A DNA stretch of 64,000 nt, taken from contig CAYYAR010000004.1 of NCBI GenBank assembly GCA_964470065.1, positions 26,329 to 90,328 on the forward strand, read 5' to 3'. Source of the stretch: an uncultured Verrucomicrobiota bacterium (GTDB lineage: Bacteria; Verrucomicrobiota; Kiritimatiellia; CAIVKH01). The notes under the pieces are model-generated. The model was given only the letters and a program-made list of their open reading frames with translations. It had not been told where the DNA came from and did no database searches. Below, in pieces: positions 84-40,035 of the stretch (its first letter is position 1; each line of letters opens with the position of its first letter). The translations under genes were made by a program, and so were the position numbers.

Positions 84-160
<77 letters not shown>

Positions 161-19676: not shown

Positions 19677-19811
19677 GGCGTGATCCTTTCGTGATTTAAC
19701 TGCCGCCACACTAGCAAGAGACCTATAGCAACTAATGCTATAGGTTAAGAATTAAAAAAATTATTTCTCTTGGTGCCGGTTTCCGTCCTGATTCATAGTT
19801 GGGCCCGTGAC

Positions 19812-20945
19812 ATGAGCACGCCGCCGTTCAATAGCCGTCAGGCATGTATCGCGCTGAATATGCTGGATCAAATCGGTCCGGTGCGAACGCGCAAGATGGT
19901 CGAAGCGCTCGGTTCTCCGGAGGCGATCTTCCAGGCGAGCGAGGACGAGCTCGCCCGCATTCCCGGCGTCGGGCGCGAGGCGGTGCGATCGATCATTGCG
20001 GACGGATCCGGGATCGATCCCGTTGCCGAGGAGAGAAAAGCGGGCAAGCAAGGTATCCGCATCGTGACCTGGATGGAGGCGGAATATCCGGATGCCTTGA
20101 AGGAAATCCACGACCCGCCATTGGCGCTCTATATACAAGGACAGATCCTCCCGGCCGACCGGCATGCGTTGGCGATCGTCGGAACGCGCCATGCCACGCA
20201 TTATGGTTCATCGGTCGCGGACCGGCTGGCCTACGGGCTGGCCAAAGCCGGCTTTACCATCGTCAGCGGTCTGGCCCGGGGGATCGATACCGTGGCTCAT
20301 GAAGCCGCCTTGAAGGCGGGCGGGCGCACCCTCGGGGTGCTCGGCAGCGCGATCGATCAGTTTTATCCGCGGGAAAATCTCGAACTGGGCAAGAAGATGG
20401 CCTCGCAGGGCGCCGTGATCAGCGAGTATCCACTCGGCCGCCCGCCGGACCGGCAAACCTTTCCGTACCGCAACCGCATCGTGGCCGGGATGACCATGGG
20501 GATCATCGTGGTGGAGGCGGGGGAAAAGAGCGGAGCAGTCATCACCGCGAACGCCGCGCTCGAGCAGGGGCGTCACGTGTTTGCCGTGCCGGGACGCATC
20601 GATAACCCGGCCGCACGCGGTTGCCATGGCCTTATAAAATCGGGGGCAAAATTGATTGAAACCATCGACGATATCGTCGATGACCTGCAGATGCTGATAC
20701 CGAAAAAGATTGACCAGCAGGCCACTAATTTGAAAAAGACCCCTGACGTCATGCTCTCGGCCGACGAGGCGGCGATCGTGAAGGCCCTCGGTGGCGGCGG
20801 TCGTCAGGTGGATGAATTGGCCCGCGCCTGCGGGTTGTCGGCCGCCCGGTTGAACAGCCTTTTGCTCGGCCTGGAGATGAAGAAAGTAGTGCGCACGCTG
20901 CCGGGACGCCTGGTGGAGATGCGCGAAATCATGCAAGTGGGATAG
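19812..20945 (+). CDS. dprA: DNA processing protein DprA (Smf)
   Basis: DprA Rossmann-like core IVSGLARGIDTVAHEAALKAGGRTLGVLGSAID...AVPGRID, plus a C-terminal winged-helix region. The ORF begins at 19770; ATG 19812 (MSTPPF) is preferred. Confidence 0.85.
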   Translation: MSTPPFNSRQACIALNMLDQIGPVRTRKMVEALGSPEAIFQASEDELARIPGVGREAVRSIIADGSGIDPVAEERKAGKQGIRIVTWMEAEYPDALKEIHDPPLALYIQGQILPADRHALAIVGTRHATHYGSSVADRLAYGLAKAGFTIVSGLARGIDTVAHEAALKAGGRTLGVLGSAIDQFYPRENLELGKKMASQGAVISEYPLGRPPDRQTFPYRNRIVAGMTMGIIVVEAGEKSGAVITANAALEQGRHVFAVPGRIDNPAARGCHGLIKSGAKLIETIDDIVDDLQMLIPKKIDQQATNLKKTPDVMLSADEAAIVKALGGGGRQVDELARACGLSAARLNSLLLGLEMKKVVRTLPGRLVEMREIMQVG

Positions 20946-20954
20946 CGAAGTATC

Positions 20955-23504
20955 ATGGCAAAAAATCTCGTCATCGTAGAGTCGCCGGCCAAGGCGAAGA
21001 CCATCAACAAAATACTCGGCAAGGATTACGTGGTGAAGGCCTCGATGGGCCATGTCCGTGATCTCCCGGAAAAGGAAATCGGCGTCGACCTCGAGAAGAA
21101 TTTCAAGCCAAAGTACGTCAATATCAAGACCCGCGACAAGGTGGTGAAGGAATTGAAGTCCGCCGCCGACGGGGTGGAAACGATCATTCTCGCGCCCGAT
21201 CCCGACCGCGAGGGAGAGGCCATCGCCTGGCACCTTATGGCCGCGCTGAAGGGCACGGTGCCTCCGGAAAATTTCCAGCGCGTGACCTACAACGAAATTA
21301 CCGCCCCGGCCATCCGGGAAGCTTTCGCCCGCCCCCGGAAAATCAATCAGCACAAAGTCGACGCCCAGCAGGCCCGGCGCGTGTTGGACCGGATTGTCGG
21401 CTACCAGGTCAGTCCGCTCTTGTGGCGGCGCATCCGCGGCGCATCGAGCGCGGGACGGGTGCAGTCGGTGGCGTTGCGCATTGTGTGCGACCGGGAAAAG
21501 GAAATCATGAACTTCAAGCCCGAGGCCTACTGGCTGATGGGCGCCCGCGTGAAGAAACAGACGCCGCCGGTGGAGCCGTTTGCCATCAAACTCGCCCGCA
21601 TGGACGGCGAGAAGGCCGACATCAAATCCGCCGAACAAGCCGAAGCCATCCGGCGCGATCTGGAGGGCCGCACGATCCGGGTCAGCGCGTTGGCCTCGCG
21701 GGAAATCTCCAAACGGCCGCAACCCGCCTACATCACCAGTTCATTGCAGCAGGCCGGCAACCGGTTTTATGGTTTCCCTCCCACCCGCACCATGCGCATT
21801 GCGCAGAAGCTCTATGAAGGTGTCGATGTCGGTCAGGGCGTGGTTGGTTTGATTACCTACATGCGTACCGACTCGGTCAACATTTCGCCCCTGGCGCAAC
21901 AGGCCGCGAGGGAATTTATTCATCGCGAATTCGGTACGGAGTTTCTACCCGACCGCCCGCCCGTCTACAAAAGCAAGGACAACGCTCAGGAGGCCCACGA
22001 GGCCATCCGCCCGACCGACGTGAACCTCACGCCCGAGAAGGTGGCCCACGCGCTCGATCCCGAGGCGCTGAAGCTGTACCGCATCATCTGGCAGCGGTTT
22101 GTGGCCAGTCAGATGGCGCCAGCCAAAATTGCCCAGCGCACCGCGGAGTTTGAAGCGATCGCCGGCGATCGCCCGGGCACGCACAGCTATCTGTTCCGCG
22201 CCTCCGCCTCGGATGTGGTTTTTCCCGGCTATATGAAGGTAACCGGAATCGAGAAGGAAAAGAAAAGCGAAGCCGAGGATGTCGAAGGCGAGGAAGAGGA
22301 CATAGCACTTCCGCCCCTGACCGAGGGCGAGCCACTCGACCACGTGGAGTGGCTCGAGGAGCGCAAAGAGACCCAGCCACCGCCGCGCTATACCGAATCA
22401 TCGCTGGTGAAGGCGCTCGAAGACAACGGGGTGGGCCGTCCCAGCACCTATGCACAGACCGTGTCGACGATCGTCGATCGCGACTATGTCTCGAAAGACA
22501 AGCGCACGCTCAAGCCGACCTCGCGCGGCATGCAGGTGAATGACTTTCTTGCCCGCTATCTGCCCGACCTGTTCGATATCGGTTTCACCGCCGGCATGGA
22601 AAAGGAACTCGATGAAATCGAAGAGGGCAAGGTGGTGTGGACCGACATGCTGGGCCGGTTCTACGGATCCTTCCTGGGCTGGGTCGATAAAGCCAAATCG
22701 CCACCGGCCGATCTCAAGGTGGTCGACGGACTGATCGAGTTGTTGTCGGGCGTCAAGGAGTGGGCGCCCGCTACCAAGCGTGGCAAGAAAACCTACAGCG
22801 ACGAGAAATTTGTCCAGTCCGTCCACGAGCAAAAGGTGAGCAACGATCCGCCGCTTACCGATCGCCAGCAGGAAGCGCTGGTGAAAATGGCGATGCGATA
22901 CAAGGAGCAGTTGCCCTCGCTGGAGGCGAGATTCCATGATCTGGGACTGACCGAGGAACTGGTCAAGTATCACGAATCCACCCTGCCGCCGCGCCCTGAA
23001 AGTATTCTGAAGCTGGCGTTGTTGCGCGGGGTCGACTGCGATCCGCCGCGGCAGGTTGGCAAGAAGACCTATAGCGACAAGGAGTTCATCGCCTCGCTCG
23101 ACCAGCAAGTCACGGGCGGCAAGCGGCTCAGTGAAAACCAACTCAAGTACCTCGACCGTTTGGTGCTGAAGTATGCGCATCAGATTCCTGATTTCGAGAG
23201 CCGCAAGGCCGAGTTGAAAATCGAGGAAGGTCCGCCGGTCGAGACCGATCCGCAGGCCGGGGAGATCCTCGAATTGATCGGCAAAATCACCGAGTGGAAA
23301 GAACCGGTGAAACGCGGCAAGCGCGTCTGGGACGACAAGGAATTTTACCAGTCGCTCGACCGCCAGTTCCGCCAGAAAAAAAGCCTTTCGCCGCGCCAGG
23401 TCGCGGCCATGCGCAAAATGGCCGCCCGCTACGCCGGCGCGATTCCGGGTTACGCGGATCACGCCGAGCGGTTGAATCTGAAGGCGGGCAAGGCTAGGGA
23501 GTAG
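20955..23504 (+). CDS. topA: DNA topoisomerase I with three C-terminal ~80-aa repeats instead of zinc ribbons
   Basis: Toprim N-terminus MAKNLVIVESPAKAKTINKILG and a type IA core. The C-terminus contains three repeats (KRGKKTYSDEKFVQSV..., GKKTYSDKEFIASL..., KRGKRVWDDKEFYQSL...) typical of the topoisomerase C-terminal repeat family. Confidence 0.95.
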   Translation: MAKNLVIVESPAKAKTINKILGKDYVVKASMGHVRDLPEKEIGVDLEKNFKPKYVNIKTRDKVVKELKSAADGVETIILAPDPDREGEAIAWHLMAALKGTVPPENFQRVTYNEITAPAIREAFARPRKINQHKVDAQQARRVLDRIVGYQVSPLLWRRIRGASSAGRVQSVALRIVCDREKEIMNFKPEAYWLMGARVKKQTPPVEPFAIKLARMDGEKADIKSAEQAEAIRRDLEGRTIRVSALASREISKRPQPAYITSSLQQAGNRFYGFPPTRTMRIAQKLYEGVDVGQGVVGLITYMRTDSVNISPLAQQAAREFIHREFGTEFLPDRPPVYKSKDNAQEAHEAIRPTDVNLTPEKVAHALDPEALKLYRIIWQRFVASQMAPAKIAQRTAEFEAIAGDRPGTHSYLFRASASDVVFPGYMKVTGIEKEKKSEAEDVEGEEEDIALPPLTEGEPLDHVEWLEERKETQPPPRYTESSLVKALEDNGVGRPSTYAQTVSTIVDRDYVSKDKRTLKPTSRGMQVNDFLARYLPDLFDIGFTAGMEKELDEIEEGKVVWTDMLGRFYGSFLGWVDKAKSPPADLKVVDGLIELLSGVKEWAPATKRGKKTYSDEKFVQSVHEQKVSNDPPLTDRQQEALVKMAMRYKEQLPSLEARFHDLGLTEELVKYHESTLPPRPESILKLALLRGVDCDPPRQVGKKTYSDKEFIASLDQQVTGGKRLSENQLKYLDRLVLKYAHQIPDFESRKAELKIEEGPPVETDPQAGEILELIGKITEWKEPVKRGKRVWDDKEFYQSLDRQFRQKKSLSPRQVAAMRKMAARYAGAIPGYADHAERLNLKAGKARE

Positions 23505-23553
23505 ACTCCCCGGGGAGTTTGACGACCTGCGGTATTTAGGCTAGATTGCCCAT

Positions 23554-23799
23554 ATGAAAACAACCATTGATATTGCTAGCAATATTATGGAGCGGGCCAA
23601 GGGTGTGGCGCATGCGGATGGCGTAACCTTTCGTGAGTTGGTGGAAGAGGGACTTCTTCTCGCGGTTCGACAACGGGAAGTCAGGGCCAACAAGCCCATC
23701 AAGCCTGTCACCGTGAAGGGTAAAGGGTTGCACGAAGCTTTTCGCCACGGAGGCTGGGAGCAAATTAGAAATGCCGCGTATCAGGGACGCGGTGCATGA
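23554..23799 (+). CDS. Type II antitoxin (VapB-like)
   Basis: 81 aa; its stop overlaps the start of the downstream PIN toxin (ATGA). Confidence 0.65.
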   Translation: MKTTIDIASNIMERAKGVAHADGVTFRELVEEGLLLAVRQREVRANKPIKPVTVKGKGLHEAFRHGGWEQIRNAAYQGRGA

Positions 23800-24233
23800 T
23801 CGCCGTCGACACGAATCTTCTCGTGTATGCGCATCGCGAGGATTCGGACTTTCATAAATCCGCACTCTCTGCCTTGTTGGGTTTGGCTGAGGGTAGTCGA
23901 GCTTGGGGCATCCCGTGGCCTTGCGTGCACGAATTCATCGCGATAGTGACCCATCCATCGATTTACAGCCCGCCTACCGATCCAGCAACCGCTCTGGCGG
24001 CGATACGGGTTTGGATCAAATCGCCGCTGTGCCGGATGATCGGCGAAGGGCCCGGCTACCTAGACCGCCTGGAAAAACTGACGCTTCATGCCAAGGTGCG
24101 CGGCCCGATGATTCACGATGCGCGTGTGGCGGCGATTTGTCTTCACAACGGCGTGACGGAACTGTGGTCGGCCGATCGGGACTTCTCTCGCTTCGGATCG
24201 CTCAAGGTTGTGAATCCGCTTATTGGGCGATAA
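23796..24233 (+). CDS. vapC: PIN-domain toxin VapC
   Basis: MIAVDTNLLVYA...D...HD signature acidic residues of PIN domains; 145 aa. Confidence 0.8.
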   Translation: MIAVDTNLLVYAHREDSDFHKSALSALLGLAEGSRAWGIPWPCVHEFIAIVTHPSIYSPPTDPATALAAIRVWIKSPLCRMIGEGPGYLDRLEKLTLHAKVRGPMIHDARVAAICLHNGVTELWSADRDFSRFGSLKVVNPLIGR

Positions 24234-24312
24234 AAAATGCCCCGCGCCCTCTTGGGTCAGGTCATACGCATTCTGCCGGCGCGACTAATCTGCGTCCTCA
24301 TACAGTAATCAA

Positions 24313-24345
24313 AGGCTTCGCGGCGGCTGGGCCGCGAAGCCTTTT
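24313..24345 (+). terminator. Rho-independent terminator after vapBC
   Basis: GGCTTCGCGGC-GGCTGG-GCCGCGAAGCC (11-bp stem) followed by TTTTT. Confidence 0.6.
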
Positions 24346-24478
24346 TCATGGCCGCATTTGACGGTATTCCGGCTAGTCGATAGTCTGGACGCATGAAACT
24401 AGCCAATCGTGGCACCTCGGCCGCGAATTCAATCCGCTTCACGGTCCCCGGCCGTCATGCTGCAGGGGTGCCGATAGC

Positions 24479-25429
24479 ATGACCCCGGACCCTGCCATGG
24501 AGGCGTTTGTCGCTTATTTGCGCGCCGAGCGCGATGCGAGTGAGCACACGATTGCGAATTACCTGATGGATATTCGCCAATTCATCGCGATCACCTGGGG
24601 CGAGAACGCCGCGCCACCGTTTGCCTGGAAGCGGGTGGATCGATTTGCCGCGCGTGGATTTCTGGTGCACCAGCAGAAGGCGGAAAAAACGCCGACCACG
24701 GCGCGCCGCAAATTGTCCAGCCTCCGGTCGTTCTTCAAGTTCATGATGCGCGAGGATCTCGTGACGCTGAATCCGTTCAGTGGACTGGTCATGCCCAAGC
24801 TGGCCCGCCGTCTGCCGAAGGTCCTGAGTATCGACGAAATAGGTCGTTTGTTGAATGCCCCGTTTCTTGACCGGGTCGAGCACGCCGAGCCGAAAAACAA
24901 GACATGGGATACGTATGCCCGCGATCGCGATGTGGCGATTCTCGAGTTGTTGTACTCGACCGGTGCGCGCTTGAGTGAAATTGCCGGACTCAAAGAAACG
25001 CAGCTCGATCTTCTCTCCGGGGTTCTAACCGTGCGCGGCAAAGGTAAAAAAGAGCGCATGTGTCCGTTGGGTAATCCGGCCGTCAAGGCGCTTCGACGGG
25101 CTCTCGATGCCCGCGAGGCGGTCTGGATAACCTTGGGCAAAACCGCCCGCCCGCCCGCCCTGTTTCTGAATAAATTCGGTGGCCGGCTCACCCCGCGCTC
25201 GATCGAACGCATGATGAAAAAATATTTAATCTCGTCCGGGTTGAATCCGGACTTGTCGCCGCACGCTTTGCGGCATAGCTTTGCCACCCATCTGCTCGAT
25301 GCCGGGGCGGATTTACGTAGTGTGCAGGAGCTGCTCGGCCATGCCAACCTCTCGACCACGCAAATCTATACCCACATCACGGTGGAACGTCTGCGCGAGG
25401 TGTACGACAAGGCGCACCCGAGGGCGTGA
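24479..25429 (+). CDS. xerC: Tyrosine site-specific recombinase XerC/XerD
   Basis: N-terminal SAM-like domain plus C-terminal catalytic RHSFATHLL...LGHANLSTTQIYTH (R..H..R..Y motifs). Lies in the conserved dprA-topA-xerC neighbourhood. Confidence 0.9.
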   Translation: MTPDPAMEAFVAYLRAERDASEHTIANYLMDIRQFIAITWGENAAPPFAWKRVDRFAARGFLVHQQKAEKTPTTARRKLSSLRSFFKFMMREDLVTLNPFSGLVMPKLARRLPKVLSIDEIGRLLNAPFLDRVEHAEPKNKTWDTYARDRDVAILELLYSTGARLSEIAGLKETQLDLLSGVLTVRGKGKKERMCPLGNPAVKALRRALDAREAVWITLGKTARPPALFLNKFGGRLTPRSIERMMKKYLISSGLNPDLSPHALRHSFATHLLDAGADLRSVQELLGHANLSTTQIYTHITVERLREVYDKAHPRA

Positions 25430-27481: not shown

Positions 27482-28398
27482 CCTTGGCCGACGAGCTGGC
27501 CGGACGCGGCGTCCGCACGATTACCGGCGCCCGGCTTGCCGACTTCACCACCTTCCGGCTCGGCGGCGCCTGCCCGGTGCTGGTCGATTGTGACTCGGAA
27601 CATTCCTTCAGCTCGGTGTGGCCACTTTTGGGTCCATCAGAGGCAATATTGTTGGGCGGGGGATCCAATCTGCTGGTGAGCGACGCGGGTTTAACCAGCC
27701 CGGTGGTGCGGTACGTTTCCACCCGGCCGGAAATATATTTCGATGGCACGGCTGTTCGCGTAAGCGCCGGCACACTGCTCGATGATCTGGCTCGCATCAC
27801 GGCGGAGCGCGGACTCGACGGCATGGTCATGTGTTCGGGCATTCCAGGAACCGTGGGAGGCGCCGTGGCCGGAAATGCCGGAGCATTCGGCGAACAGATC
27901 GGGGATCGCGTGGTGGTCGTGCAGACGATGGATCGTCGCGGACACAAGCGCGAGCGGGTGCCGTCCGGACTGGCGTTTGCTTACCGCCGGTCGGCGCTGG
28001 CCGGCCTGGATGAGGTCATCGTGTCGGTGCGGTTGCAACTCGATGCCGGCGACCGGGAAAAACTGTTGGCGCGCCGCGCCGGGATTCTTGCCTTGCGCGC
28101 ATCGAAACATCCGGACTGGCGCGTGGTGCCGACGGCCGGGAGTTTTTTCAAGAATATCGAACCGACCTCGAAGGCGGATCGGCGTCAGGCCGCCGGGTGG
28201 TTTCTCGAACAGGCGGGTGCCTTGCGCATGAGCGTCGGGAGCGCCCGGACGTTTGAGCGACACGCCAATATCATTGTGTCCGGTCCGGGCGGCCGGTCAA
28301 GGGATGTGGCCCGGTTGTCGGAGATGATGGCCGGTGCGGTGGAAGAAAAGTTTGGATTGCGCCTCGAGCGCGAAGTGAAAATGCTGGGAGCGTTCTGA
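27478..28398 (+). CDS. murB: UDP-N-acetylenolpyruvoylglucosamine reductase
   Basis: FAD-binding domain LGGGSNLLVSD... and a MurB C-terminal domain; start overlaps the previous stop (ATGA). Confidence 0.85.
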   Translation: MTLADELAGRGVRTITGARLADFTTFRLGGACPVLVDCDSEHSFSSVWPLLGPSEAILLGGGSNLLVSDAGLTSPVVRYVSTRPEIYFDGTAVRVSAGTLLDDLARITAERGLDGMVMCSGIPGTVGGAVAGNAGAFGEQIGDRVVVVQTMDRRGHKRERVPSGLAFAYRRSALAGLDEVIVSVRLQLDAGDREKLLARRAGILALRASKHPDWRVVPTAGSFFKNIEPTSKADRRQAAGWFLEQAGALRMSVGSARTFERHANIIVSGPGGRSRDVARLSEMMAGAVEEKFGLRLEREVKMLGAF

Positions 28399-29084
28399 TG
28401 TTGGCAGGTGAATTCAAAGAAGTGATGAAGGTGCGGGACCTTCGCTGGTTCGGGCAGGATGTGTTTGAATTATCCCTCGAGCGCGAGGGTCTTGACTTCA
28501 CGCCGGGTGATTGCCTCGCGCTGTTTGCCGCAGATGGCCGGGTGTCGCGCCCCTACAGCATCGCGTCGGGTAACCGGGAAGATGCCATCCGTTTTATCAT
28601 TCGACTCATGCCGGGCGGCGAGGTGACGCCCTTTCTGGCTTCGCGCCGTCCGGGCGACGCGGTCCGGGTGAGTCCGCCGTTCGGCTGGTTTCGTCCCGGC
28701 GAGCACGCGGCGGAGCGGCCGTGTGTCTTTATCGCCACGGGAACCGGCATAGCCCCCTTTCGCTCCGTCTTGCGCAGCCAGCCGTCGCTTAAGCCGGCCG
28801 CGCTTCTCTATGGCGTGCGCAAGAAGGAGGACCTTGTCGATCCGGAGTGGCTGGTCGAGCGGGCCGGGGCGATGTTGGCGGTCTCGCGCGAGCAGGTGCC
28901 CGGTTGTTTCCACGGGCGCGTAACCCAGTTGCTCGACAGTCTCGGCGAACTCGGCGAGGCGGATTATTATCTTTGCGGTCTCGATACGATGATCGACGAA
29001 GTAACGAATTGGCTGGAAGCTCGCGGCACCGGAATCGTCCGCATTCATCGCGAATGTTTTTTTAACGCGTCGTATTACACCTAA
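28398..29084 (+). CDS. Ferredoxin-NADP reductase-like FAD/NAD(P)-binding oxidoreductase
   Basis: RPYSIAS FAD-binding motif and the GTGIAPF NAD(P)-binding motif. Confidence 0.75.
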   Translation: MLAGEFKEVMKVRDLRWFGQDVFELSLEREGLDFTPGDCLALFAADGRVSRPYSIASGNREDAIRFIIRLMPGGEVTPFLASRRPGDAVRVSPPFGWFRPGEHAAERPCVFIATGTGIAPFRSVLRSQPSLKPAALLYGVRKKEDLVDPEWLVERAGAMLAVSREQVPGCFHGRVTQLLDSLGELGEADYYLCGLDTMIDEVTNWLEARGTGIVRIHRECFFNASYYT

Positions 29085-29098
29085 CGGGGCCCGGTTGA

Positions 29099-30070
29099 TC
29101 AGGGCGCGGCGGGTCCGAGGTTCTCGATAACCTCGGCATCCGCGGCCCGGGAGTTGGCGCGCACGATGCGAATGCGCACGCGGTCATCGACCTTTGATTC
29201 CGGAACAAACACAATGTAATTGTTGATGCGGGCCACACCGTTGACCGCGGGATTCCGGCGGTCCACTTCGGAGATGACGACTTCGTACTCCTCGCCGGGT
29301 TGCACCGGGATATACGGTTGGGCACCATCCGCGCTGGTAGCCTCTTCGCGCTTTTGCTCCGTCGCCACGGCGGATGCGCCGGTAGTTAATTCACCGCGGG
29401 CAAATCGTCCGACGTCCTCCACGATGCGGAATTCCACCTGCTCGCCCAGGGAGGCGCCGGCCACGAAGACCACCTTGCCGTCGACTTTGGCGATGCCATC
29501 ACCCTCGCGTCCGATGGCTTCGATGGTGGCCTGGTGCACTTGACCAACCATGCCATCGATGCGGGAATCCGCTTCATCCGCTGATTCGACTCCGGCGCGG
29601 CCGGGCACCGGGCGACCGGTTTCGAGCGTCTCAATCAACGAGGACTCGGCTGTGCTGCGCTTCAGTCGCGTGACTTCTATGATGGCCACATCGCCGGGGC
29701 GGGAGTCGGGGACAAACGTCAGCAGGCCGCCAATCCGGGTCACTCCGGCATTCCCCTCCCGGCGGGATTCATCCATCACCAGCACCTTGTAGCGCTGACC
29801 CTCAACCGCGGCAGCGTCCGGATTCTCGATAGCGTCAATAATCTCCTCCGCGGAACTTTCTTCTACCACGGGAGGAGGCGCTGTTTCCTCGACCGCAGGG
29901 GCACGTTCGATGGCGGGGGCGGGGGGCAACGAGGCGGGGGCTGTCACCTCCCGGGTTTTTTCCTCTTGGCCGGTCACCAGATAAATCACGGCGCCGGCGC
30001 CGGTGAGTGTGATCAACAACAGCGCGATAATTACAGTACGTGTTCCGGTGTCCGGCTTGGATGATGTCAT
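29099..30070 (-). CDS. Membrane-anchored protein with three tandem TRAM domains
   Basis: Start MTSSKPDTG, preceded by GAGGGGGAG (Shine-Dalgarno-like). One TM (VIIALLLITLTGAGAVIYLV), a Pro/Ala/Glu-rich linker, then three TRAM-like repeats (GQRYKVLVMD...GVTRIGGLLTFVP..., GQVHQATIEA...GIAKVDGKVVFVAG..., GEEYEVVISEV...GVARINNYIVFVPE...). Confidence 0.65.
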   Translation of the reverse strand: MTSSKPDTGTRTVIIALLLITLTGAGAVIYLVTGQEEKTREVTAPASLPPAPAIERAPAVEETAPPPVVEESSAEEIIDAIENPDAAAVEGQRYKVLVMDESRREGNAGVTRIGGLLTFVPDSRPGDVAIIEVTRLKRSTAESSLIETLETGRPVPGRAGVESADEADSRIDGMVGQVHQATIEAIGREGDGIAKVDGKVVFVAGASLGEQVEFRIVEDVGRFARGELTTGASAVATEQKREEATSADGAQPYIPVQPGEEYEVVISEVDRRNPAVNGVARINNYIVFVPESKVDDRVRIRIVRANSRAADAEVIENLGPAAP

Positions 30071-30234
30071 GGTTTTTCTCCCCCTCGGGCTAAAAGGATT
30101 CATGAAAGATCCGGCGCCGGCAATAAAAATTCGGAGCTGGTTGGGCGCGTGACATGCCCCGGAGCGCGCCATCGTCCCGGCCGCAAATTAAACGCTATTG
30201 TCAGGATCGCGGCACAAACGTATCTTTCCGCGCC

Positions 30235-31701
30235 ATGGCCACCAAAACCAAATCAGCGGCTCCACCGCCGGTAATCAGCTTGATCAGTCTTGGCTGTGCG
30301 AAAAACGAGGTCGATTCCGAACGCATCCTCGGCAAGCTTGCCACGGCAGGATTTCTCATCGCGGAAGATCCCGCCGAGGCCGATGTGTGCCTGGTCAACA
30401 CGTGTGGTTTTATCACGGACTCGCGCGAGGAGTCGGCGGGCGTATTGAACGAGTTGCAGCGGCTGAAGTCGCAGGGCCGCGTCAAATCGGTGGTGGCTCT
30501 GGGTTGTCTGGTCGAGCGGGCGGCCGGTGCTCCCGAAACGAATCACTACCTCGGCGGTGCGGATGCGCTGGTCGGCTTTCAGGATTATCCCAAACTGGAG
30601 GAAATCTGCCGCACGCTGGCGAACAGTGAAGCAAAGACCAAGTCGCCACGCCAGAACGATGGCATTCCAGTCACGATCGGCGACAAGCGCTTCTCCGGCC
30701 TCGCCGCCCAAGCGCAATCATTTGCGGCCAGCTACAATAAATTTCTTGCCGCTCCCCGCCTGCGCGTGGGTTCGCCCCACATCGCCCATCTCAAAATCAG
30801 CGAGGGCTGCTCGAATTTTTGCAAGTTCTGCTCCATTCCCTACATCCGCGGCGTGCAGGTCAGTCGCCCGGTCGAGCATATCGTCACGGAGGCGCGCCAG
30901 CTTATCGACACCGGCGCGAAGGAGATCAGCCTCATCGCCCAGGACACCACCAGCTACGGACGCGACCTGTACGGCGATTACCGTTTGTCGGCGTTGCTGA
31001 AATCCCTTTTCGCCATCGAAGCCGGTGATATCTGGTTTCGTCTGATGTATGCGTTCCCGCGCTTCCTGACCGATGACATGCTGGCCACGTTGGCTTCCGA
31101 TCCGCGGATGTGTCCATACATCGACATGCCGCTCCAGCATATTGCCGACAAGATGCTGAGCGACATGGGACGCGGCATGCTGAAAAAGGAGACCATCGCG
31201 CTGCTCGATCGCATTCATACCGTGTGGCCGCAAGGCGCCATTCGCACCACCTTCATTGTCGGTTATCCCGGCGAGACGGACGCGCATTTTGAAGAGTTGT
31301 TGTCGTTTGTCCGGGAGGGACGTTTCTCCCATGTCGGCGTATTCATGTATTCGCACGAGCCGAAGACGCCCTCGGCGAAATTGCCTGATCAGATTCCGTT
31401 GGTCGAAAAAAAGCGCCGGCGCGATGCAATCATGTCCGCGCAGTTGGCGGTGTCGAGGCGCCGGCTGAAGGCCATGGTGGGCGGACAACGGCGCGTGATG
31501 GTTGATGGCCCGCCCGGGCCGGGCATGGCGATTCCCCGGGGCGTGCATGCCATGGGTCGAAGCCAGCTCGAGGCGAGCGATGTCGACGGCGTGATTTTTC
31601 TCAAGGGCCGGGCCGCCGCCCGGTTGGAACCGGGCACCATGGTCGATACGCGCATCGAACAGAGCCTGGATTACGATCTCGTCGCGCGCATGGTGGAGTA
31701 G
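30235..31701 (+). CDS. rimO: Ribosomal protein S12 methylthiotransferase RimO (radical SAM MTTase)
   Basis: MTTase N-terminal domain ISLISLGCAKNEVDSE...VNTCGFI, radical SAM CxxxCxxC (CSNFCKFC), and a C-terminal TRAM. Long N-terminal Ala/Pro-rich extension plus an internal insertion. Confidence 0.85.
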   Translation: MATKTKSAAPPPVISLISLGCAKNEVDSERILGKLATAGFLIAEDPAEADVCLVNTCGFITDSREESAGVLNELQRLKSQGRVKSVVALGCLVERAAGAPETNHYLGGADALVGFQDYPKLEEICRTLANSEAKTKSPRQNDGIPVTIGDKRFSGLAAQAQSFAASYNKFLAAPRLRVGSPHIAHLKISEGCSNFCKFCSIPYIRGVQVSRPVEHIVTEARQLIDTGAKEISLIAQDTTSYGRDLYGDYRLSALLKSLFAIEAGDIWFRLMYAFPRFLTDDMLATLASDPRMCPYIDMPLQHIADKMLSDMGRGMLKKETIALLDRIHTVWPQGAIRTTFIVGYPGETDAHFEELLSFVREGRFSHVGVFMYSHEPKTPSAKLPDQIPLVEKKRRRDAIMSAQLAVSRRRLKAMVGGQRRVMVDGPPGPGMAIPRGVHAMGRSQLEASDVDGVIFLKGRAAARLEPGTMVDTRIEQSLDYDLVARMVE

Positions 31702-31705
31702 GGAC

Positions 31706-32101
31706 ATGTCCGCGCGTCATCCCGCCGTGCTGAAGTGGGAGCAGGACTTGAAGCGCATCTTCGACGGCATTGATCACGAATTGGAAGAGCGTTATGGCGC
31801 CGATTACGCGTTGCGACCCAATCGTCCCGAACGCGGCGCCACGGCGAATCCGGAAGATGACGGACTCTTTAATGTCGGCGCCTCGTTTTCCGCCGGCTAC
31901 GGATCCAAACGCGGACGCGGCTATATTATCAGCGTACGGATGGCGACCATAAACCGGATACCGCCGCCGGTGCAGGATCACATGGAAGAGGAAGTGGCGG
32001 CCATGCTTCGCGCGCGGCTGCCGGAGGCTTTTCCGGGCCGGGACTTGCGCGTCGAGCGCGACGGCCATGTGTTCAAGATCACCGGTGACTTGCGTTTGTG
32101 A
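31706..32101 (+). CDS. Hypothetical protein
   Basis: 131 aa immediately downstream of rimO in the same orientation; no recognisable domain. Confidence 0.4.
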   Translation: MSARHPAVLKWEQDLKRIFDGIDHELEERYGADYALRPNRPERGATANPEDDGLFNVGASFSAGYGSKRGRGYIISVRMATINRIPPPVQDHMEEEVAAMLRARLPEAFPGRDLRVERDGHVFKITGDLRL

Positions 32102-32141
32102 TCGCGTGGAACAATGGAGGCCACGTTGCTCCGGGCAAACG

Positions 32142-33194
32142 CTATGCCACCGCCACTGGCCGGCCGCCCGGTGCGCCCTCGCGACCGGACAAGCAGCAAT
32201 TCACCGGACACACGTCATGCTTGGGCGGACGATTTCCGATCACGCGCTTCGGCTTGGCGGGATCCATGCGTTCCTCGATCAAATCGGCAATCATGGAAAC
32301 AAACAGCGGGTGCGTGCCGGGTGTGGCGGCGCGATGCATCGTGATGCCAAGCTCGTGGCAAAGATCGATTGCTTCATGGTCGAGGTCATACATGACTTCC
32401 ATGTGGTCGGAAATAAATCCGACCGGATGCACGATGATCTCCCTCACGCCCCGGCCGTGCAGCTCGCGAATGTGATCACAGATATCCGGCCCCAACCACG
32501 GTTGATGCGGCGGTCCGCTCCGGCTCTGATACACCAGTTTCCAGTTTGTGATCCCCGCCATTTCTGCGGCAAGCTCGCAGGTGTTTTCCAGTTGCACCGC
32601 ATAATCGCACTTGTCCGCCATCGTTTGCGGAATGCTGTGCGCCGTGAACGCCGTGTGAATATGTTCGCGGCGGGCGGCCGGAAAGCGATCGCGGGCCTGC
32701 TCCCAATGATCGGCGCAAACCCGGATGAAGTCGGGATGGTTGTAATAGACGCGAATCTTGTCAAACGATGGCCCGCCTTCCCCGAGCGCCTCGCAGGCGC
32801 GCATCATGTCTTCCCGGTATTGACGGCAACCGGAATAACAACTGAATCCCGAGGTCACGAACGCGAGAAACTTCTTCACGCCGGTATCGCGCATCTCGCG
32901 CACGACATCGCCGACAAATGGTTTCCAGTTGCGATTGCCAAGATACACCGGCGTCGTGATGCCGCGCCGGCAAAGCTCCGCGACCAGTGCCTCCCGGAGC
33001 GCGCTGTTTTGCCGGTTGATCGGGCTGACCCCGCCGAACATTTCATAGTGATGCGCCACTTCGCGTTTGCGCTCTTCGGGCACGCCGCGCCCGCGCAAGA
33101 CATTGTCGAGAAAGGGCATCACATCGTTCATGCCTTCCGGGCCGCCGAAAGACATCATTAAAATCGCATCATAGGGGTTGGGATTCATATCCAT
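32142..33194 (-). CDS. hemH: Ferrochelatase
   Basis: N-terminus ILMMSFGGPEG and conserved ferrochelatase blocks; 350 aa. Confidence 0.9.
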   Translation of the reverse strand: MDMNPNPYDAILMMSFGGPEGMNDVMPFLDNVLRGRGVPEERKREVAHHYEMFGGVSPINRQNSALREALVAELCRRGITTPVYLGNRNWKPFVGDVVREMRDTGVKKFLAFVTSGFSCYSGCRQYREDMMRACEALGEGGPSFDKIRVYYNHPDFIRVCADHWEQARDRFPAARREHIHTAFTAHSIPQTMADKCDYAVQLENTCELAAEMAGITNWKLVYQSRSGPPHQPWLGPDICDHIRELHGRGVREIIVHPVGFISDHMEVMYDLDHEAIDLCHELGITMHRAATPGTHPLFVSMIADLIEERMDPAKPKRVIGNRPPKHDVCPVNCCLSGREGAPGGRPVAVA

Positions 33195-37599: not shown

Positions 37600-38250
37600 T
37601 CCCGCAAATCGCTGACCTGCTGGAGTCGCTTTGAAATCGCCTTGGGCGACATGTCAACCGCTGACATTTGGCTCACCACTCAATTTTTCTACATAGTCAC
37701 GATCCAAGCCAGATCCTTGGCGCGTCCGGTGACACGTTTGTTTTTGGTGTAAGCGGTTTTCTCGATGAAGTGAACGGGAACATCCCCATAGTGCCCGTTT
37801 TCCTTGCCGGCCACCGCCACCTCCCGGGTTATTCCGGTAAGCGAGGTAATAATGTATTAACGAACCGGAGGCACGCCCAACTGAACAACCTGCTCCGGCG
37901 TTTGAAAATCACCCGCGGTCAGGCCCAGCGACCCAAAGCCAAAATCGTTCAGCGCCTGAAGCACGTGCGCGGCGTTTTCCGGGGTTGCGCGCACCAGCAG
38001 GTAGATGTCACCGGTAAAACGGGGCGCGCCGTGAAAGGCGAGGGCGTAGACGCCCATGACCAGATACTCAACCTCGCGAGCGTTATACAACGCGAGCACT
38101 ACTTTGAAGTCGGGCTGTGTTTCAATGAAATTGACGCCTTAAACGTTCAACCGCGTCGAGTCGTTGGGCCGGCGATTGTGCAAGCCAAAACGCGAGACTC
38201 ACGCGCACATCACCCTCGGAGCACAAGGGCACTCGTTTGATCACCGGCTC
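37600..38250 (-). pseudogene. Decayed type II TA module (MntA-like nucleotidyltransferase plus HepT/HEPN-like remnants)
   Basis: Minus-strand frames broken by stops. ...AQRLDAVERLRRQFH* then ...LAFHGAPRFTGDIYLLVRATPENAAHVLQALNDF (minimal-nucleotidyltransferase-like GS/ARG...DIDLLV pattern) then ...KENGHYGDVPVHFIEKT (HEPN R/KxxxxHxY-like). Lower GC than the surrounding DNA. Confidence 0.35.
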
Positions 38251-38513
38251 TATCACGCACGCAGCTTATCCGGCTAAAACAATCAGGAAAGGCGCAAAAC
38301 CCGGAAAGAATGGCCGCCGCGAATCGGCTGATCTCTCCTGACTTCAACAATGGGATTCCCCGACGTACATGTATTCGGGAATCAGCTTGCGGAGAATCCG
38401 GGTGTTGATTTTTTCCTCATCTATCCGCCACCTGCGGCGGAAAAAATTTAAACTGTTCTCCCTCAACATCTTGTGCAACAGATAAAAAATATCAAAAAAT
38501 CCTGAACTACGTA

Positions 38514-38542
38514 TTGACACGTAGAGGCGCTAAGGGTTATCA
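38514..38542 (+). promoter_or_regulatory. Candidate sigma-70-like promoter (TTGACA-N17-TTATCA) upstream of the island's first gene
   Basis: A -35 hexamer TTGACA with 17-bp spacing to TTATCA, ~90 bp upstream of the start at 38632, in an AT-rich region. Confidence 0.3.
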
Positions 38543-38631
38543 ATTACAAGCATGCGAGCACGTAAAGTCTTTGCATAATTTCATGGACGAAACGAAACGA
38601 ACAGTATTAAATGCGTAACGTTGGAGAAAAA

Positions 38632-39315
38632 ATGAAAAAAATAACCGCTACACTATTGGGCACGCTGATTGCAAGTTCAGCCGCGCTCGCTCAGACCAAC
38701 CAGGTTTTGAGCCGAAATGCCGTGGGGTATGTGAAAATCAATGTGCCAGCCAGCAACAGCTTGGCTCTTGTCAGCAATCCGTTTGTAGCGTTGGACGAAG
38801 GAAGTGCTCGTATAACAAACGTATTTGCAAGTTTGGTGAACAACAGCACAGTTTCTGTATGGAACGAAGCCAGTCAAAGTTACCTTAATTACGCGAAAAA
38901 CAGTCGCGGTGGTTGGGTTGGTACAGGCGTTACAACTGTGCAGTTTGCCAGAGCTGACGCAGCATTCATCAGGTCTGCAGGAACTTCAACAGTGTTCTTC
39001 ATGGGCGAAGTCCCTGATTCAACTACTGCACCCACGACCACTCAATCGAGAGCTGCCGGGATCACAATGCTTGGAAATCCCTATCCGGTTGAGGTAGCAG
39101 TCACAAATTCATCAATCGGGTTGAGTCTGCCCGCCGGTGGTACAATTAGTATTTGGAATAGCGTTAGTAATAAATACGACAACTTTGCCAAAAACTCCCG
39201 CGGTGCTTGGGTCGGTACGATCACGGCGACAATAAAACCTGGAGACGGACTTGTTATTCGTGCAACCAATGCTACTGCGAACTTTTCAACGACAAAACCC
39301 TACAATTGGCCATAG
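38632..39315 (+). CDS. Secreted protein with two tandem ~95-aa repeats (unknown family)
   Basis: GGAG Shine-Dalgarno 6 nt upstream; signal peptide MKKITATLLGTLIASSAALA. Internal duplication (SNPFVALDEG...SVWNEASQSYLNYAKNSRGGWVGTGVTT versus GNPYPVEVAV...SIWNSVSNKYDNFAKNSRGAWVGTITAT). Lower GC. Confidence 0.65.
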   Translation: MKKITATLLGTLIASSAALAQTNQVLSRNAVGYVKINVPASNSLALVSNPFVALDEGSARITNVFASLVNNSTVSVWNEASQSYLNYAKNSRGGWVGTGVTTVQFARADAAFIRSAGTSTVFFMGEVPDSTTAPTTTQSRAAGITMLGNPYPVEVAVTNSSIGLSLPAGGTISIWNSVSNKYDNFAKNSRGAWVGTITATIKPGDGLVIRATNATANFSTTKPYNWP

Positions 39316-39333
39316 AATCATGGAGGAAAAAAT

Positions 39334-39942
39334 ATGAAAAAAACATCACTAATCATTGCGCTTCTTACAACTCTGTCGTTAAACGCCCAAGCTGGAATCA
39401 ATGTTCTGGTTTCTGGTCTTACGGGATTTTATCGTTCTGATGACACCACGGGTTTGTTGCAAGCGCCCGGCGGCCTTAATGGCTGGATACAATTTATTTA
39501 CTCCACAACAGGAGTAGTTGCCGGACCTGCTGGAATCGGAGGCACTGTAGACGGGAGCGAGTCCATTCTCGATCAGTTTGGTCTAACAAACGCCGGTAAC
39601 TCAGACGATTACGGAACTTTTGTTTACGGTTTAGTTGCTCCGCAGACAACCGGTTTTTGGTACGCTCGGTTATTCGAAGGCGGAAGTTCCACTACCGGAG
39701 CATCAGCCGATAATATCACCGCAGGTACATGGTACTATGAAAGCGCTGTTTATGCTGTGATTAACAACACAGACCCCGCTTCACCAGACGCCCAGTCAAT
39801 TCAAGGAAATAATCCTACCATTCTTCAAACTGCATTCGGTGGCGACTTCGTGAACTACCAAGTCGTTCCTGAGCCTTCCGTCCTTGCCTTCTTAGGCCTT
39901 GGAGGTTTGGCTTTGGCGGCTCGCCGTCGCTTCATCGCTTAA
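39334..39942 (+). CDS. PEP-CTERM sorting-signal secreted protein
   Basis: Signal peptide MKKTSLIIALLTTLSLNAQA; the C-terminus VVPEPSVLAFLGLGGLALAARRRFIA has the VPEP motif, a hydrophobic stretch and basic residues (exosortase signal). Lower GC. Confidence 0.8.
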   Translation: MKKTSLIIALLTTLSLNAQAGINVLVSGLTGFYRSDDTTGLLQAPGGLNGWIQFIYSTTGVVAGPAGIGGTVDGSESILDQFGLTNAGNSDDYGTFVYGLVAPQTTGFWYARLFEGGSSTTGASADNITAGTWYYESAVYAVINNTDPASPDAQSIQGNNPTILQTAFGGDFVNYQVVPEPSVLAFLGLGGLALAARRRFIA

Positions 39943-39970
39943 TCAGCGATTTTGTTTATGGCCATTTGAA

Positions 39971-39998
39971 AGCGCCCTCTCCGGAGGGCGCTTTTTTG
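39971..39998 (+). terminator. Rho-independent terminator after the PEP-CTERM gene
   Basis: AGCGCCCTC-TCCG-GAGGGCGCT followed by TTTTTT. Confidence 0.7.
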
Positions 39999-40035
39999 TT
40001 TTCCAACCGCGTCTCCCGCATTAACCTCATCGACT

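What the first reader, a model, noticed from the sequence alone, without database searches (positions are those of the whole stretch)
29099..30070. Membrane-anchored protein with three tandem TRAM domains, divergently paired with rimO
TRAM domains are small RNA-binding beta-barrels, normally found at the C-terminus of tRNA/rRNA-modifying enzymes or as free archaeal cold-shock-like proteins. Here a single N-terminal TM helix and a Pro/Ala/Glu-rich linker precede three consecutive TRAM-like repeats. The gene shares a ~160-bp divergent promoter region with rimO, a TRAM-containing S12 methylthiotransferase. A membrane-tethered triple-TRAM protein next to rimO has no obvious described role. Possibilities include membrane tethering of ribosomes/S12 or of tRNA, or a non-RNA ligand.
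Basis: partly seen in the sequence, partly recalled or inferred. Interest (0 to 1): 0.6.

Follow-up and report, generated by a model that had tools for sequence, protein, structure and literature searches.

The report
Membrane-anchored triple-TRAM protein of Kiritimatiellia
The gene is real and encodes a membrane anchor followed by three TRAM beta-barrels, but its position next to rimO is an accident of this one lineage: in most relatives the same gene opens an operon ending in the DNA-uptake channel ComEC, and the barrels most likely face the periplasm.

Summary
Observation confirmed. Window 29099-30070 (-) encodes 323 aa: one TM helix, a Pro/Ala/Glu-rich linker and three TRAM domains. Each domain alone passes Pfam's threshold. 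AlphaFold2 gives three separate beta-barrels whose nearest solved folds are TRAM domains.

The rimO reading is not supported. rimO is genuine and divergent (164-bp spacer), but it is absent from 26 related loci (240 kb). In the closest syntenic relative the TRAM gene sits at the same place in the opposite orientation, next to rpoN.

The family has about 76 clusters at 50% identity and 2-6 TRAMs. The 12 full-length genome loci come from Kiritimatiellia or other PVC/Verrucomicrobia-labelled MAGs, plus one unclassified.

In 15 of 19 distinct lineages the gene opens a tightly packed operon: TM-TRAM, a membrane-tethered NERD nuclease, two small membrane proteins, and a 1150-aa ComEC with a degenerate nuclease site.

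Flank charges, long cytoplasmic N-tails and distant relatives carrying a cleavable signal peptide or a lipobox all place the TRAMs outside the cytoplasm. That excludes ribosomes, S12 or tRNA as ligands.

Best reading (inference, about 0.4): a periplasmic, membrane-tethered nucleic-acid receptor for ComEC, analogous to ComEA. The ligand is untested. I found no description of it in the searchable literature. Moderately interesting.

The parts
29099..30070 (-). Gene for the 323-aa membrane-anchored triple-TRAM protein (stop codon included)
   Evidence: ORF list. Pfam TRAM E = 6.9e-27. 29 homologues (30 hits including the window's own protein) with the same architecture.
30078..30086 (-). Shine-Dalgarno-like GAGGGGGAG, 8 nt upstream of the ATG at 30070
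   Evidence: Read directly from the sequence. It supports the start at 30070 rather than 30172.
29969..30037 (-). Single transmembrane helix (residues 12-34), a signal-anchor type segment
   Evidence: Hydrophobicity scan. AlphaFold2 helix at residues 9-33 with pLDDT above 90. Present in 70 of 76 family representatives.
29852..29968 (-). Acidic Pro/Ala/Glu-rich disordered linker (residues 35-73)
   Evidence: 59% P/A/E. pLDDT below 50. Net charge of residues 35-85 is -10 in the window and averages -6.9 in the family.
29615..29851 (-). TRAM repeat 1 (residues 74-152), including a conserved N-terminal extension (IDAIENPD)
   Evidence: Pfam 29.9 bits alone. pLDDT about 97. Invariant G91, Y94, G106, G109, I113, G115, T118, G126, A141.
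29381..29557 (-). TRAM repeat 2 (residues 172-230)
   Evidence: Pfam 45.6 bits alone. Aligns to TRAM0076 (1yvc) residues 14-66. Invariant G187, G190, D191, K199, V201, F202, G205, G209.
29111..29305 (-). TRAM repeat 3 (residues 256-320), with the family-specific DRRNP insertion
   Evidence: Pfam 38.9 bits alone. Aligns to MM1357 (1yez) residues 9-68. Invariant V264, R271, P274, G278, R281, E316.
30071..30234 (.). 164-bp spacer shared with divergent rimO. This is a lineage-specific juxtaposition, not a conserved regulatory unit
   Evidence: Sequence. Only one weak sigma-70-like match. No Rfam match. The arrangement is absent from all relatives.
30235..31701 (+). rimO (S12 methylthiotransferase): a neighbour, not part of the system
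   Evidence: TIGR01125 at 394 bits against a 357 cut-off. Pfam UPF0004 + Radical_SAM + TRAM_2. No significant similarity between its TRAM_2 domain and the three repeats (best blastp E = 0.12).
28398..29084 (+). Ferredoxin-NADP reductase-like gene, convergent, stop codons 14 bp apart. It is the only neighbour shared with the syntenic relative L002/L095
   Evidence: Pfam FAD_binding_6 + NAD_binding_1. 73% identical protein in L002 directly upstream of the TRAM gene.

Best explanation
The protein is a type II (N-in, C-out) inner-membrane protein. A short basic N-tail and one TM helix anchor it. A flexible acidic linker of about 50 residues then holds three independent TRAM beta-barrels in the periplasm, like beads on a string.

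It belongs to a family so far found almost only in Kiritimatiellia/PVC metagenome bins. The ancestral position of the family's gene is first in a translationally coupled operon: TM-TRAM(n), a membrane-hairpin NERD (PD-(D/E)xK) nuclease, two small membrane proteins, and ComEC.

I infer that it is the extracytoplasmic nucleic-acid-binding subunit of that ComEC machine. It would capture or hold incoming DNA at the outer face of the inner membrane and hand it to the ComEC channel. This is the role ComEA plays elsewhere, carried out here with TRAM barrels instead of helix-hairpin-helix motifs.

The ComEC of these operons has lost most metal ligands of its own nuclease domain. The operon's NERD nuclease, predicted to be cytoplasmic, probably processes or degrades the imported strand.

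In the window's lineage the gene has been separated from the operon and inverted. It ended up next to rimO by chance and presumably acts in trans.

Shown here: the architecture, the fold, the operon linkage, and the absence of rimO linkage. Inferred: the topology (strongly), the DNA ligand and the ComEA-like role (weakly).
For: **1. Operon linkage.**
- 15 of 19 lineages, all below 80% mutual identity, carry TM-TRAM followed by the other operon genes: L001, L003, L004, L005, L007, L008, L009, L011, L012, L081, L083, L088, L090, L091 and L093.
- Exceptions: L012 lacks NERD, and the L009 contig ends before comEC.
- In the six loci with called genes, the gaps are 2-5 bp after the TRAM gene; four of the six loci have gaps of -17 to +2 throughout, and L081 and L090 have one wider gap (97 and 15 bp).
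- Linked members lie on deep and separate branches of the tree. Unlinked ones sit in a clade that also holds the linked P0008. Linkage is therefore ancestral.

**2. Topology.**
- Over 70 representatives the N-flank has K/R 170 and D/E 66. The C-flank has K/R 161 and D/E 201 (window family).
- 8 representatives have N-tails of 30 to 188 residues with no preceding signal sequence.
- Distant relatives of the same TRAM subtype are secreted. P0100 has a cleavable signal peptide, and P0122 has an LFGC lipobox.

**4. Binding residues.** The basic residue equivalent to TRAM0076 R35 is an Arg in TRAM1 and TRAM3 (24/25 and 25/25) but variable in TRAM2 (R 8, K 7, H 7 of 25), and F42 is kept in all three repeats. 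TRAM3 carries invariant R271 and R281 and near-invariant R299, R301 and R308.

**5. ComEC nuclease site.** It is degenerate: STHPDADHIGG aligns to LTSPLPERSAG, and VGQGD to VGYGS. The precedent is S. pneumoniae, which has an inactive ComEC nuclease domain plus a separate membrane nuclease, EndA (PMC12455585).

**6. NERD.** It keeps an invariant D...ExK motif.

**7. Window content.** The window's genome carries dprA (255 bits).
Against: - No binding data exist for this family.
- Archaeal stand-alone TRAMs bound RNA but neither ssDNA nor dsDNA (PMC5572242).
- Of the five residues essential for TRAM0076 activity (R35, F39, F42, F63, F65; PMC6705878), the repeats keep only 2-3. The beta6 aromatic pair is lost in TRAM1 and TRAM3.
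- The barrels are neutral to acidic, with family mean net charges of +0.4, -2.4 and -0.2.
- Secreted distant relatives are fused to ankyrin or FGE-sulfatase domains and are not next to comEC. The barrel may therefore be a general periplasmic binding module.
- The predicted cytoplasmic side for NERD does not fit a simple 'EndA replacement'.
- The window itself holds no NERD or comEC. The link is by homology only.
- Whether these genomes also have a canonical ComEA was not tested.
- Topology rests on sequence rules, not on a dedicated predictor or an experiment.
Confidence: 0.4

Rival explanations
1. A periplasmic TRAM-like module that binds something other than nucleic acid, such as an envelope glycan, peptidoglycan or a partner protein. 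It would act as a scaffold or spacer of a membrane complex that includes ComEC, or of the envelope more generally.
For: - The aromatic RNA-binding patch is degenerate and the barrels are acidic to neutral.
- Secreted relatives combine the same barrels with ankyrin repeats, MORN + FGE-sulfatase or GYF_2 domains. One of them sits next to PEGA and ankyrin proteins, not comEC.
- Four lineages, including the window, carry the gene away from comEC.
- The NERD membrane protein SmdA of S. aureus acts in cell morphology, not DNA uptake (PMC9040797).
Against: - Conserved Arg-rich positions sit on the face equivalent to the RNA-binding face.
- The operon partners are a nuclease and a DNA channel.
Confidence: 0.25
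2. The orientation is the reverse (N-out, C-in). The TRAM barrels would be cytoplasmic and tethered at the membrane. There they would bind the single strand emerging from ComEC, or RNA, and pass it to the membrane-tethered cytoplasmic NERD nuclease.
For: - NERD is predicted to be cytoplasmic, with K/R-rich flanks on both sides of a two-helix hairpin. A cytoplasmic partner would be tidy.
- All TRAM domains characterised so far are cytoplasmic RNA binders.
- An R or K directly follows the TM helix in most members.
Against: - The net-charge difference across the helix favours N-in.
- N-tails of up to 188 charged residues cannot be exported without a signal sequence.
- Relatives with a cleavable signal peptide or a lipobox carry the same barrels outside the cytoplasm.
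Confidence: 0.15
3. One reading: a partner of RimO that tethers ribosomes, S12 or tRNA to the membrane, co-regulated with rimO through the shared divergent promoter region.
For: - Physical adjacency with a 164-bp divergent spacer in this window.
- Both proteins contain TRAM-type barrels.
Against: - rimO is absent from 26 related loci covering 240 kb.
- The gene is inverted in place relative to L002/L095, where it is co-directional with the FNR-like gene and followed by rpoN.
- RimO's TRAM_2 domain shows no specific similarity to the repeats (best E = 0.12).
- The predicted periplasmic location excludes ribosomal or tRNA ligands.
Confidence: 0.02

Closest known systems
Archaeal stand-alone TRAM proteins (MM1357 / PDB 1yez; TRAM0076 / PDB 1yvc), which are RNA chaperones
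   Different: - Those are soluble cytoplasmic proteins of about 70 aa with a single domain. This protein has a TM anchor, three specialised non-interchangeable repeats and a predicted periplasmic location.
- Two to three of the five residues essential for RNA unfolding are replaced.
- The genomic context is comEC, not translation or cold shock.
ComEA, the membrane-anchored or periplasmic DNA receptor of natural transformation (comEA-comEB-comEC operon of Bacillus)
   Same: Both have an N-terminal membrane anchor, a flexible linker and an extracytoplasmic nucleic-acid-binding-fold module. Both are the first gene of an operon that ends in comEC. The description of ComEA comes from PMC12455585.
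   Different: There is no helix-hairpin-helix or SLBB domain and no sequence or fold relationship. DNA binding is not shown. This is an analogy of position and architecture, not membership.
TRAM domains of RNA-modifying enzymes (RumA/RlmD, RlmCD, MiaB, RimO)
   Different: There is no catalytic domain, the barrel is present in tandem copies, and the protein is membrane-anchored and predicted to be extracytoplasmic.
[quoted passage not shown]
   Same: The ComEC of the Kiritimatiellia operons has lost most metal ligands. A separate membrane-bound nuclease, NERD, is encoded alongside it. The precedent is cited from PMC12455585.
   Different: NERD is a PD-(D/E)xK-type domain, not an EndA-type one. 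It is predicted to face the cytoplasm, so it may act on the imported strand rather than on the strand that is not transported.
Multi-barrel nucleic-acid binders (ribosomal protein S1, SP_0946, HIN-200, Unr cold-shock repeats)
   Same: They share the beads-on-a-string arrangement of OB-like barrels. These are the top whole-chain Foldseek matches.
   Different: Those use different barrel families (S1, HIN, CSD), are cytoplasmic or nuclear, and have no membrane anchor.

Membership tests
TRAM domain (Pfam PF01938) | Sequence match above the Pfam gathering threshold for each putative repeat | tested here: met
   The repeats score 29.9, 45.6 and 38.9 bits against a threshold of 21. The whole protein scores 93.5 bits in 3 stretches.
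TRAM domain (Pfam PF01938) | Small five-stranded antiparallel beta-barrel superposable on solved TRAM domains | tested here: met
TRAM domain (Pfam PF01938) | RNA binding through the basic and aromatic surface (R35, F39, F42, F63, F65 of TRAM0076) | tested here: inconclusive
   The equivalents of R35 and F42 are kept in all three repeats. F63 is kept only in repeat 2. F39 is L, K or F/L and F65 is D, R or D/N/R in repeats 1, 2 and 3 respectively (residues from PMC6705878). Binding itself cannot be tested here.
Archaeal TRAM RNA chaperone (NCBIfam NF053605 PyTRAM, equivalog) | Stand-alone protein of about 56-70 aa with a single cytoplasmic TRAM domain | tested here: not met
   The score of 110.6 exceeds the 85 cut-off only as the sum of three stretches. 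The protein has 323 aa, a TM helix and three repeats. It is not an equivalog.
ComEA (DNA receptor of natural transformation) | C-terminal helix-hairpin-helix DNA-binding domain (HHH_3), often with an SLBB domain | tested here: not met
ComEA (DNA receptor of natural transformation) | Extracytoplasmic location, anchored to or near the inner membrane | tested here: inconclusive
   Charge bias, long N-tails and secreted relatives predict N-in, C-out. No dedicated predictor or experiment was available.
ComEA (DNA receptor of natural transformation) | Genetic linkage to comEC | tested here: met
   Linked in 15 of 19 lineages of the family. Not linked in the window itself.
ComEA (DNA receptor of natural transformation) | Binds double-stranded DNA and is required for DNA uptake | not testable with these tools
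   This needs EMSA or anisotropy with the purified ectodomain, plus genetics.
RimO-associated / S12-modification system | Conserved gene neighbourhood with rimO | tested here: not met
   tblastn with the window's RimO found no hit in 26 related loci covering 240 kb. The orientation differs in the syntenic relative.
Known anti-phage defence systems (PADLOC) | Match of the protein or its operon partners to a defence-system model | tested here: not met
   The TRAM protein, both small proteins and ComEC gave no hit. NERD hits only the N-terminal NERD region of PglW and MkoA.

The most novel reading that the evidence does not exclude
Kiritimatiellia use a DNA-uptake module of a kind not yet described. 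The periplasmic DNA receptor is built from tandem extracytoplasmic TRAM barrels instead of ComEA. The ComEC channel has a dead nuclease domain. A membrane-tethered NERD nuclease on the cytoplasmic side processes the imported strand, possibly for DNA scavenging as food rather than for transformation. This would also be the first TRAM domain shown to work outside the cytoplasm and on DNA.
Probability: 0.3. Interest if true: 0.7.

Novelty: new variant of a known kind. Interest (0 to 1): 0.5.

Why it matters
TRAM is regarded as a cytoplasmic RNA-binding module of modification enzymes and of archaeal chaperones. A family in which 2-6 TRAM barrels hang from a membrane anchor on the periplasmic side, and which is inherited together with ComEC, would widen the known range of this fold.

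It would also give a testable candidate for how a poorly studied PVC lineage captures DNA at the inner membrane. The ComEC of this lineage lacks an intact nuclease site.

It also matters as a caution. The eye-catching pairing with rimO, another TRAM-containing protein, results from a single-gene inversion in one lineage and carries no functional signal.

Tried and rejected
- **First genome-collection scan.** A scan with the single protein found nothing. The alignment-based scan worked.
- **Exact look-up of the window protein's contig.** Nothing was on record, so I could not ask whether the same genome carries NERD-comEC elsewhere. tblastn found neither gene in the 64-kb window.
- **Inverted repeats flanking the gene**, which could explain the inversion. 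Only weak pairs of 12-22 nt and 77-92% complementarity turned up. I did not consider them meaningful.
- **Regulatory RNA or promoter in the spacer.** There was no Rfam match and only one weak sigma-70-like site, 9 nt before the rimO start.
- **Defence-system reading of the operon.** Rejected, because PADLOC hits only the generic NERD region.
- **'NERD replaces the external ComEC nuclease, like EndA'.** Weakened, because the hairpin anchor with basic flanks on both sides predicts a cytoplasmic NERD.
- **Recent duplication of RimO's TRAM.** Rejected, because there is no significant similarity.
- **Literature.** Searches for TRAM+ComEC, NERD+ComEC and Kiritimatiell*+comEC found nothing relevant.
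- **AFDB50 fold search.** The library was not available.
Full report
**1. The observation**

The mechanical ORF on the minus strand runs from 29099 to 30172. All 24 aligned homologues start at the Met encoded at 30070. That ATG is preceded at 8 nt by GAGGGGGAG.

- Pfam finds TRAM (PF01938) with E = 6.9e-27 in three stretches and nothing else of note.
- Scanned separately, the three segments score 29.9, 45.6 and 38.9 bits against a gathering threshold of 21.
- Repeats 2 and 3 are 27% identical. Repeat 1 is too diverged to pair by BLAST.
- An AlphaFold2 model built on 25 family sequences has mean pLDDT 82. It shows a helix at residues 9-33, three separate barrels with pLDDT above 90, and disordered linkers. 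The pTM of 0.38 means there is no fixed arrangement between the domains.
- The linker after the helix is 59% Pro/Ala/Glu.
- rimO is genuine: TIGR01125 scores 394 bits against a cut-off of 357. Its probable start at 30235 leaves a 164-bp divergent spacer.

**2. The family**

A word-indexed search found 29 other clusters with the same architecture. They are 37-53% identical over 74-100% of the query and mostly 284-405 aa long. Where they are named at all, they are called only 'TRAM domain-containing protein [Kiritimatiellia bacterium]'.

An exhaustive profile search found 76 representatives (50% identity clusters) with E <= 1e-30.

- 70 of the 76 have one hydrophobic helix before the first TRAM.
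- Counting those 70, 1 has one TRAM, 23 have two, 40 have three, 5 have four and 1 has six.

The genome-collection scan returned 12 full-length loci. Eleven come from Kiritimatiellia/Kiritimatiellae, Verrucomicrobia-labelled or 'PVC group' metagenome bins, and one comes from an unclassified bin.

The three repeats are not interchangeable. Each has its own invariant residues across the family. The four-TRAM forms duplicate repeat 2. The two-TRAM forms keep repeats 1+3 or 1+2.

**3. Gene neighbourhood**

tblastn with the window's RimO found no match in 26 related loci covering 240 kb. What is conserved is a five-gene operon:

1. TM-TRAM(n).
2. A protein of about 251 aa with two N-terminal hydrophobic segments and a NERD domain (Pfam 97 bits). 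Its D...ExK signature (AQIDH...ETKNW) is invariant in 12 sequences.
3. Two small membrane proteins of about 62-76 aa each.
4. A ComEC of about 1090-1160 aa with DUF4131 + Competence domains. TIGR00360 scores 50.9 against a cut-off of 36.5.

| Context | Loci |
|---|---|
| Operon present | L001, L003, L004, L005, L007, L008, L009 (contig ends before comEC), L011, L012 (no NERD), L081, L083 |
| Operon present | L088 |
| Operon present | L090 |
| Operon present | L091 |
| Operon present | L093 |
| Elsewhere | The window |
| Elsewhere | L002/L095 |
| Elsewhere | L086 |
| Elsewhere | L010 (a two-TRAM form) |

That is 15 of 19 lineages with the operon. No two of the 19 proteins are 80% identical. In the six loci with called genes, the gaps are 2-5 bp after the TRAM gene; four of the six loci have gaps of -17 to +2 throughout, and L081 and L090 have one wider gap (97 and 15 bp).

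In a neighbour-joining tree the operon-linked members occupy deep and separate branches. The unlinked window, P0005 and L002 lie in one clade that also contains the linked P0008. Linkage is therefore the ancestral state, and separation is secondary.

**4. How the gene came to lie beside rimO**

L002/L095 shares the window's upstream gene order: xerC, kdtA, DUF2007, a PduO-type adenosyltransferase, murB and the FNR-like gene, with 66-86% protein identity. There the TRAM gene follows on the same strand and is followed by rpoN.

A nucleotide comparison shows that the FNR-like gene aligns colinearly while the TRAM gene aligns in reverse. One of the two lineages has therefore inverted this single gene in place.

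The 'divergent promoter shared with rimO' is thus a recent, lineage-specific juxtaposition.

- The spacer holds no Rfam element.
- It has only one weak promoter-like match.
- RimO's own TRAM_2 domain has no specific similarity to the repeats.

**5. Which side of the membrane**

No topology predictor was available, so this section is inference from four observations.

- **(a) Flank charges.** In 70 representatives the 15 residues before the helix hold 170 K/R and 66 D/E. The 15 residues after it hold 161 K/R and 201 D/E. The 25-sequence alignment gives 47/31 against 38/84. The charge-difference rule gives N-in, C-out.
- **(b) Long N-tails.** Eight representatives have N-tails of 30-188 residues that are hydrophilic, charged and without a signal sequence. 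Examples are P0050, P0079, P0102 and P0104. Tails like these cannot be exported.
- **(c) GYF_2 forms.** P0112 and P0101 place a GYF_2 domain before the helix.
- **(d) Secreted relatives.** More distant members of the same TRAM subtype are plainly secreted. They share the 'VIDAT...RYKV...' extension of repeat 1 and match the family profile with E = 6e-34 to 1e-20.
  - P0100 begins with a classical cleavable signal peptide (…LPFSAFA|R), followed by ankyrin repeats and three TRAMs.
  - P0122 begins with a lipoprotein signal (…LFGC), followed by MORN repeats, an FGE-sulfatase domain and two TRAMs.

I put the probability that the window's TRAMs are periplasmic at about 0.75-0.8. If so, ribosomes, S12 and tRNA are excluded as ligands.

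**6. What the barrels might bind**

TRAM0076 needs R35, F39, F42, F63 and F65 for RNA unfolding (PMC6705878). I mapped these positions through the HMMER alignments to 1yvc and 1yez and counted them in the family.

| TRAM0076 residue | Repeat 1 | Repeat 2 | Repeat 3 |
|---|---|---|---|
| R35 | R in 24/25 | R, K or H | R in 25/25 |
| F39 | L | invariant K | F, L or M |
| F42 | F in 23/25 | F in 25/25 | F in 24/25 |
| F63 | T | F | A or S |
| F65 | D | R | D, N or R |

The basic residue and one aromatic residue persist, but the beta6 aromatic pair is gone from repeats 1 and 3. Repeat 3 has extra conserved arginines: the invariant DRRNP insertion plus R281, R299, R301 and R308.

Net charges of the barrels are near zero or negative.

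Archaeal TRAMs bound RNA but not DNA (PMC5572242).

The sequence therefore does not decide between DNA, RNA and another ligand. It shows only that the surface has been remodelled relative to the RNA chaperones.

**7. The partners**

Aligned to solved ComEC nuclease domains (9ic4, 30bt), the operon's ComEC reads as follows:

- VGYGSS where they have VGQGDA.
- LTSPLPERSAG where they have STHPDADHIGG.
- VPGHGA where they have VPHHGS.

Most metal ligands are replaced. The literature gives a precedent. S. pneumoniae ComEC lacks some catalytic residues, and the membrane nuclease EndA degrades the non-transported strand (PMC12455585).

Here, however, NERD has basic flanks on both sides of a two-segment hairpin and no signal sequence, so it is predicted to be cytoplasmic. 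It would then act on the imported strand. That fits nutritional DNA scavenging or processing better than an EndA-like role. This step is speculative.

PADLOC gives no support for a defence system. The window itself encodes dprA but neither NERD nor comEC.

**8. Most likely mechanism**

Committing to one reading at confidence about 0.4: the protein is a type II membrane protein. Its acidic linker holds three TRAM barrels in the periplasm. There they bind incoming nucleic acid and deliver it to ComEC.

This makes it a positional and architectural analogue of ComEA, which has a membrane anchor, a linker and a DNA-binding module and is the first gene of a comEC operon. It is not a ComEA family member, because no HhH domain is present.

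| Status | Steps |
|---|---|
| Shown | Architecture, fold, family, operon linkage, absence of rimO linkage, degenerate ComEC nuclease site |
| Strongly inferred | Periplasmic orientation |
| Weakly inferred | DNA as the ligand, the hand-over to ComEC, the role of NERD |

Rivals:

- A periplasmic non-nucleic-acid binding or scaffold module (0.25). The ankyrin and FGE-sulfatase fusions and the degenerate aromatic patch favour it.
- Reverse topology with cytoplasmic strand handling (0.15).
- The rimO/S12 idea (0.02).

**9. Novelty and score**

Full-text searches for TRAM with ComEC, NERD with ComEC, and Kiritimatiell* with comEC found nothing relevant. The proteins carry only generic names.

The domain and the ComEC machinery are both known. 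Three things appear to be undescribed: the tandem, membrane-anchored, apparently extracytoplasmic use of TRAM, its inheritance with comEC and NERD, and the dead ComEC nuclease site. I class this as a new variant of a known kind.

As a family, it is a moderately interesting and experimentally tractable lead. The interest score is 0.5.

Noticed in passing
L083:10126-13590 (also L081, L088, L090, L012 comEC genes): The ComEC of about 1150 aa in the Kiritimatiellia operons has a degenerate metallo-beta-lactamase nuclease site. STHPDADHIGG of solved ComEC aligns to LTSPLPERSAG, VGQGD to VGYGS, and VPHHGS to VPGHGA. The protein is also about 350 aa longer than typical ComEC.
   Followed up: partly
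L083:8957-9712 and orthologues in 11 other loci: A membrane-hairpin NERD protein with an invariant D...ExK motif is translationally coupled between the TRAM gene and comEC. The charge pattern predicts a cytoplasmic nuclease domain. Two conserved small membrane proteins of about 62-76 aa each, with no family match, follow it.
   Followed up: partly
P0100, P0122, P0119, P0112, P0101 (profile-search hits; locus L096 for P0100): Distant relatives carry the same TRAM subtype behind a cleavable signal peptide or lipobox. They are fused to ankyrin repeats, MORN + FGE-sulfatase or GYF_2 domains. P0100 lies among uncharacterised genes together with ankyrin, YccF and PEGA proteins, not comEC.
   Followed up: partly
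window 28398-30070 versus L002 5302-6933: There is a single-gene inversion. The FNR-like gene aligns colinearly, but the TRAM gene aligns in reverse between the two lineages. No convincing flanking inverted repeats were found.
   Followed up: yes
window 31706-32101 (+): A 131-aa ORF starts 4 nt after the rimO stop on the same strand. It has no Pfam or NCBIfam match and was not found in the related loci.
   Followed up: no
window 19770-25429 (+): dprA (TIGR00732, 255 bits) is followed by a likely topA (20955-23504) and a xerC/xerD-type recombinase (24479-25429). The xerC-kdtA-...-FNR-like block is syntenic with L095.
   Followed up: partly
window 38000-43000: GC falls to 0.485-0.54 against about 0.60 elsewhere. 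The region holds a 234-aa secreted-looking protein with no family match, a PEP-CTERM protein (39334-39942) and a 982-aa fusion of an MFS-like membrane region, a spermidine-synthase domain and TPR repeats (40036-42984).
   Followed up: no
window 50206-50592 (-): A PIN-domain (VapC-like) toxin gene of 128 aa. A short upstream partner ORF is likely but was not examined.
   Followed up: no
window 10467-14876 (-): A 1469-aa secreted-looking protein with weak GH57, CBM53 and fn3 matches. This fits the polysaccharide-degrading lifestyle of Kiritimatiellia.
   Followed up: no
window 87-160 (-): A single tRNA gene, the only Rfam gathering-level match in the whole window.
   Followed up: no
window 32067-33161 (+): A 364-aa ORF lies antisense to the ferrochelatase gene (32142-33194, -; Pfam 287 bits). 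It is almost certainly a high-GC shadow ORF, not a gene.
   Followed up: partly
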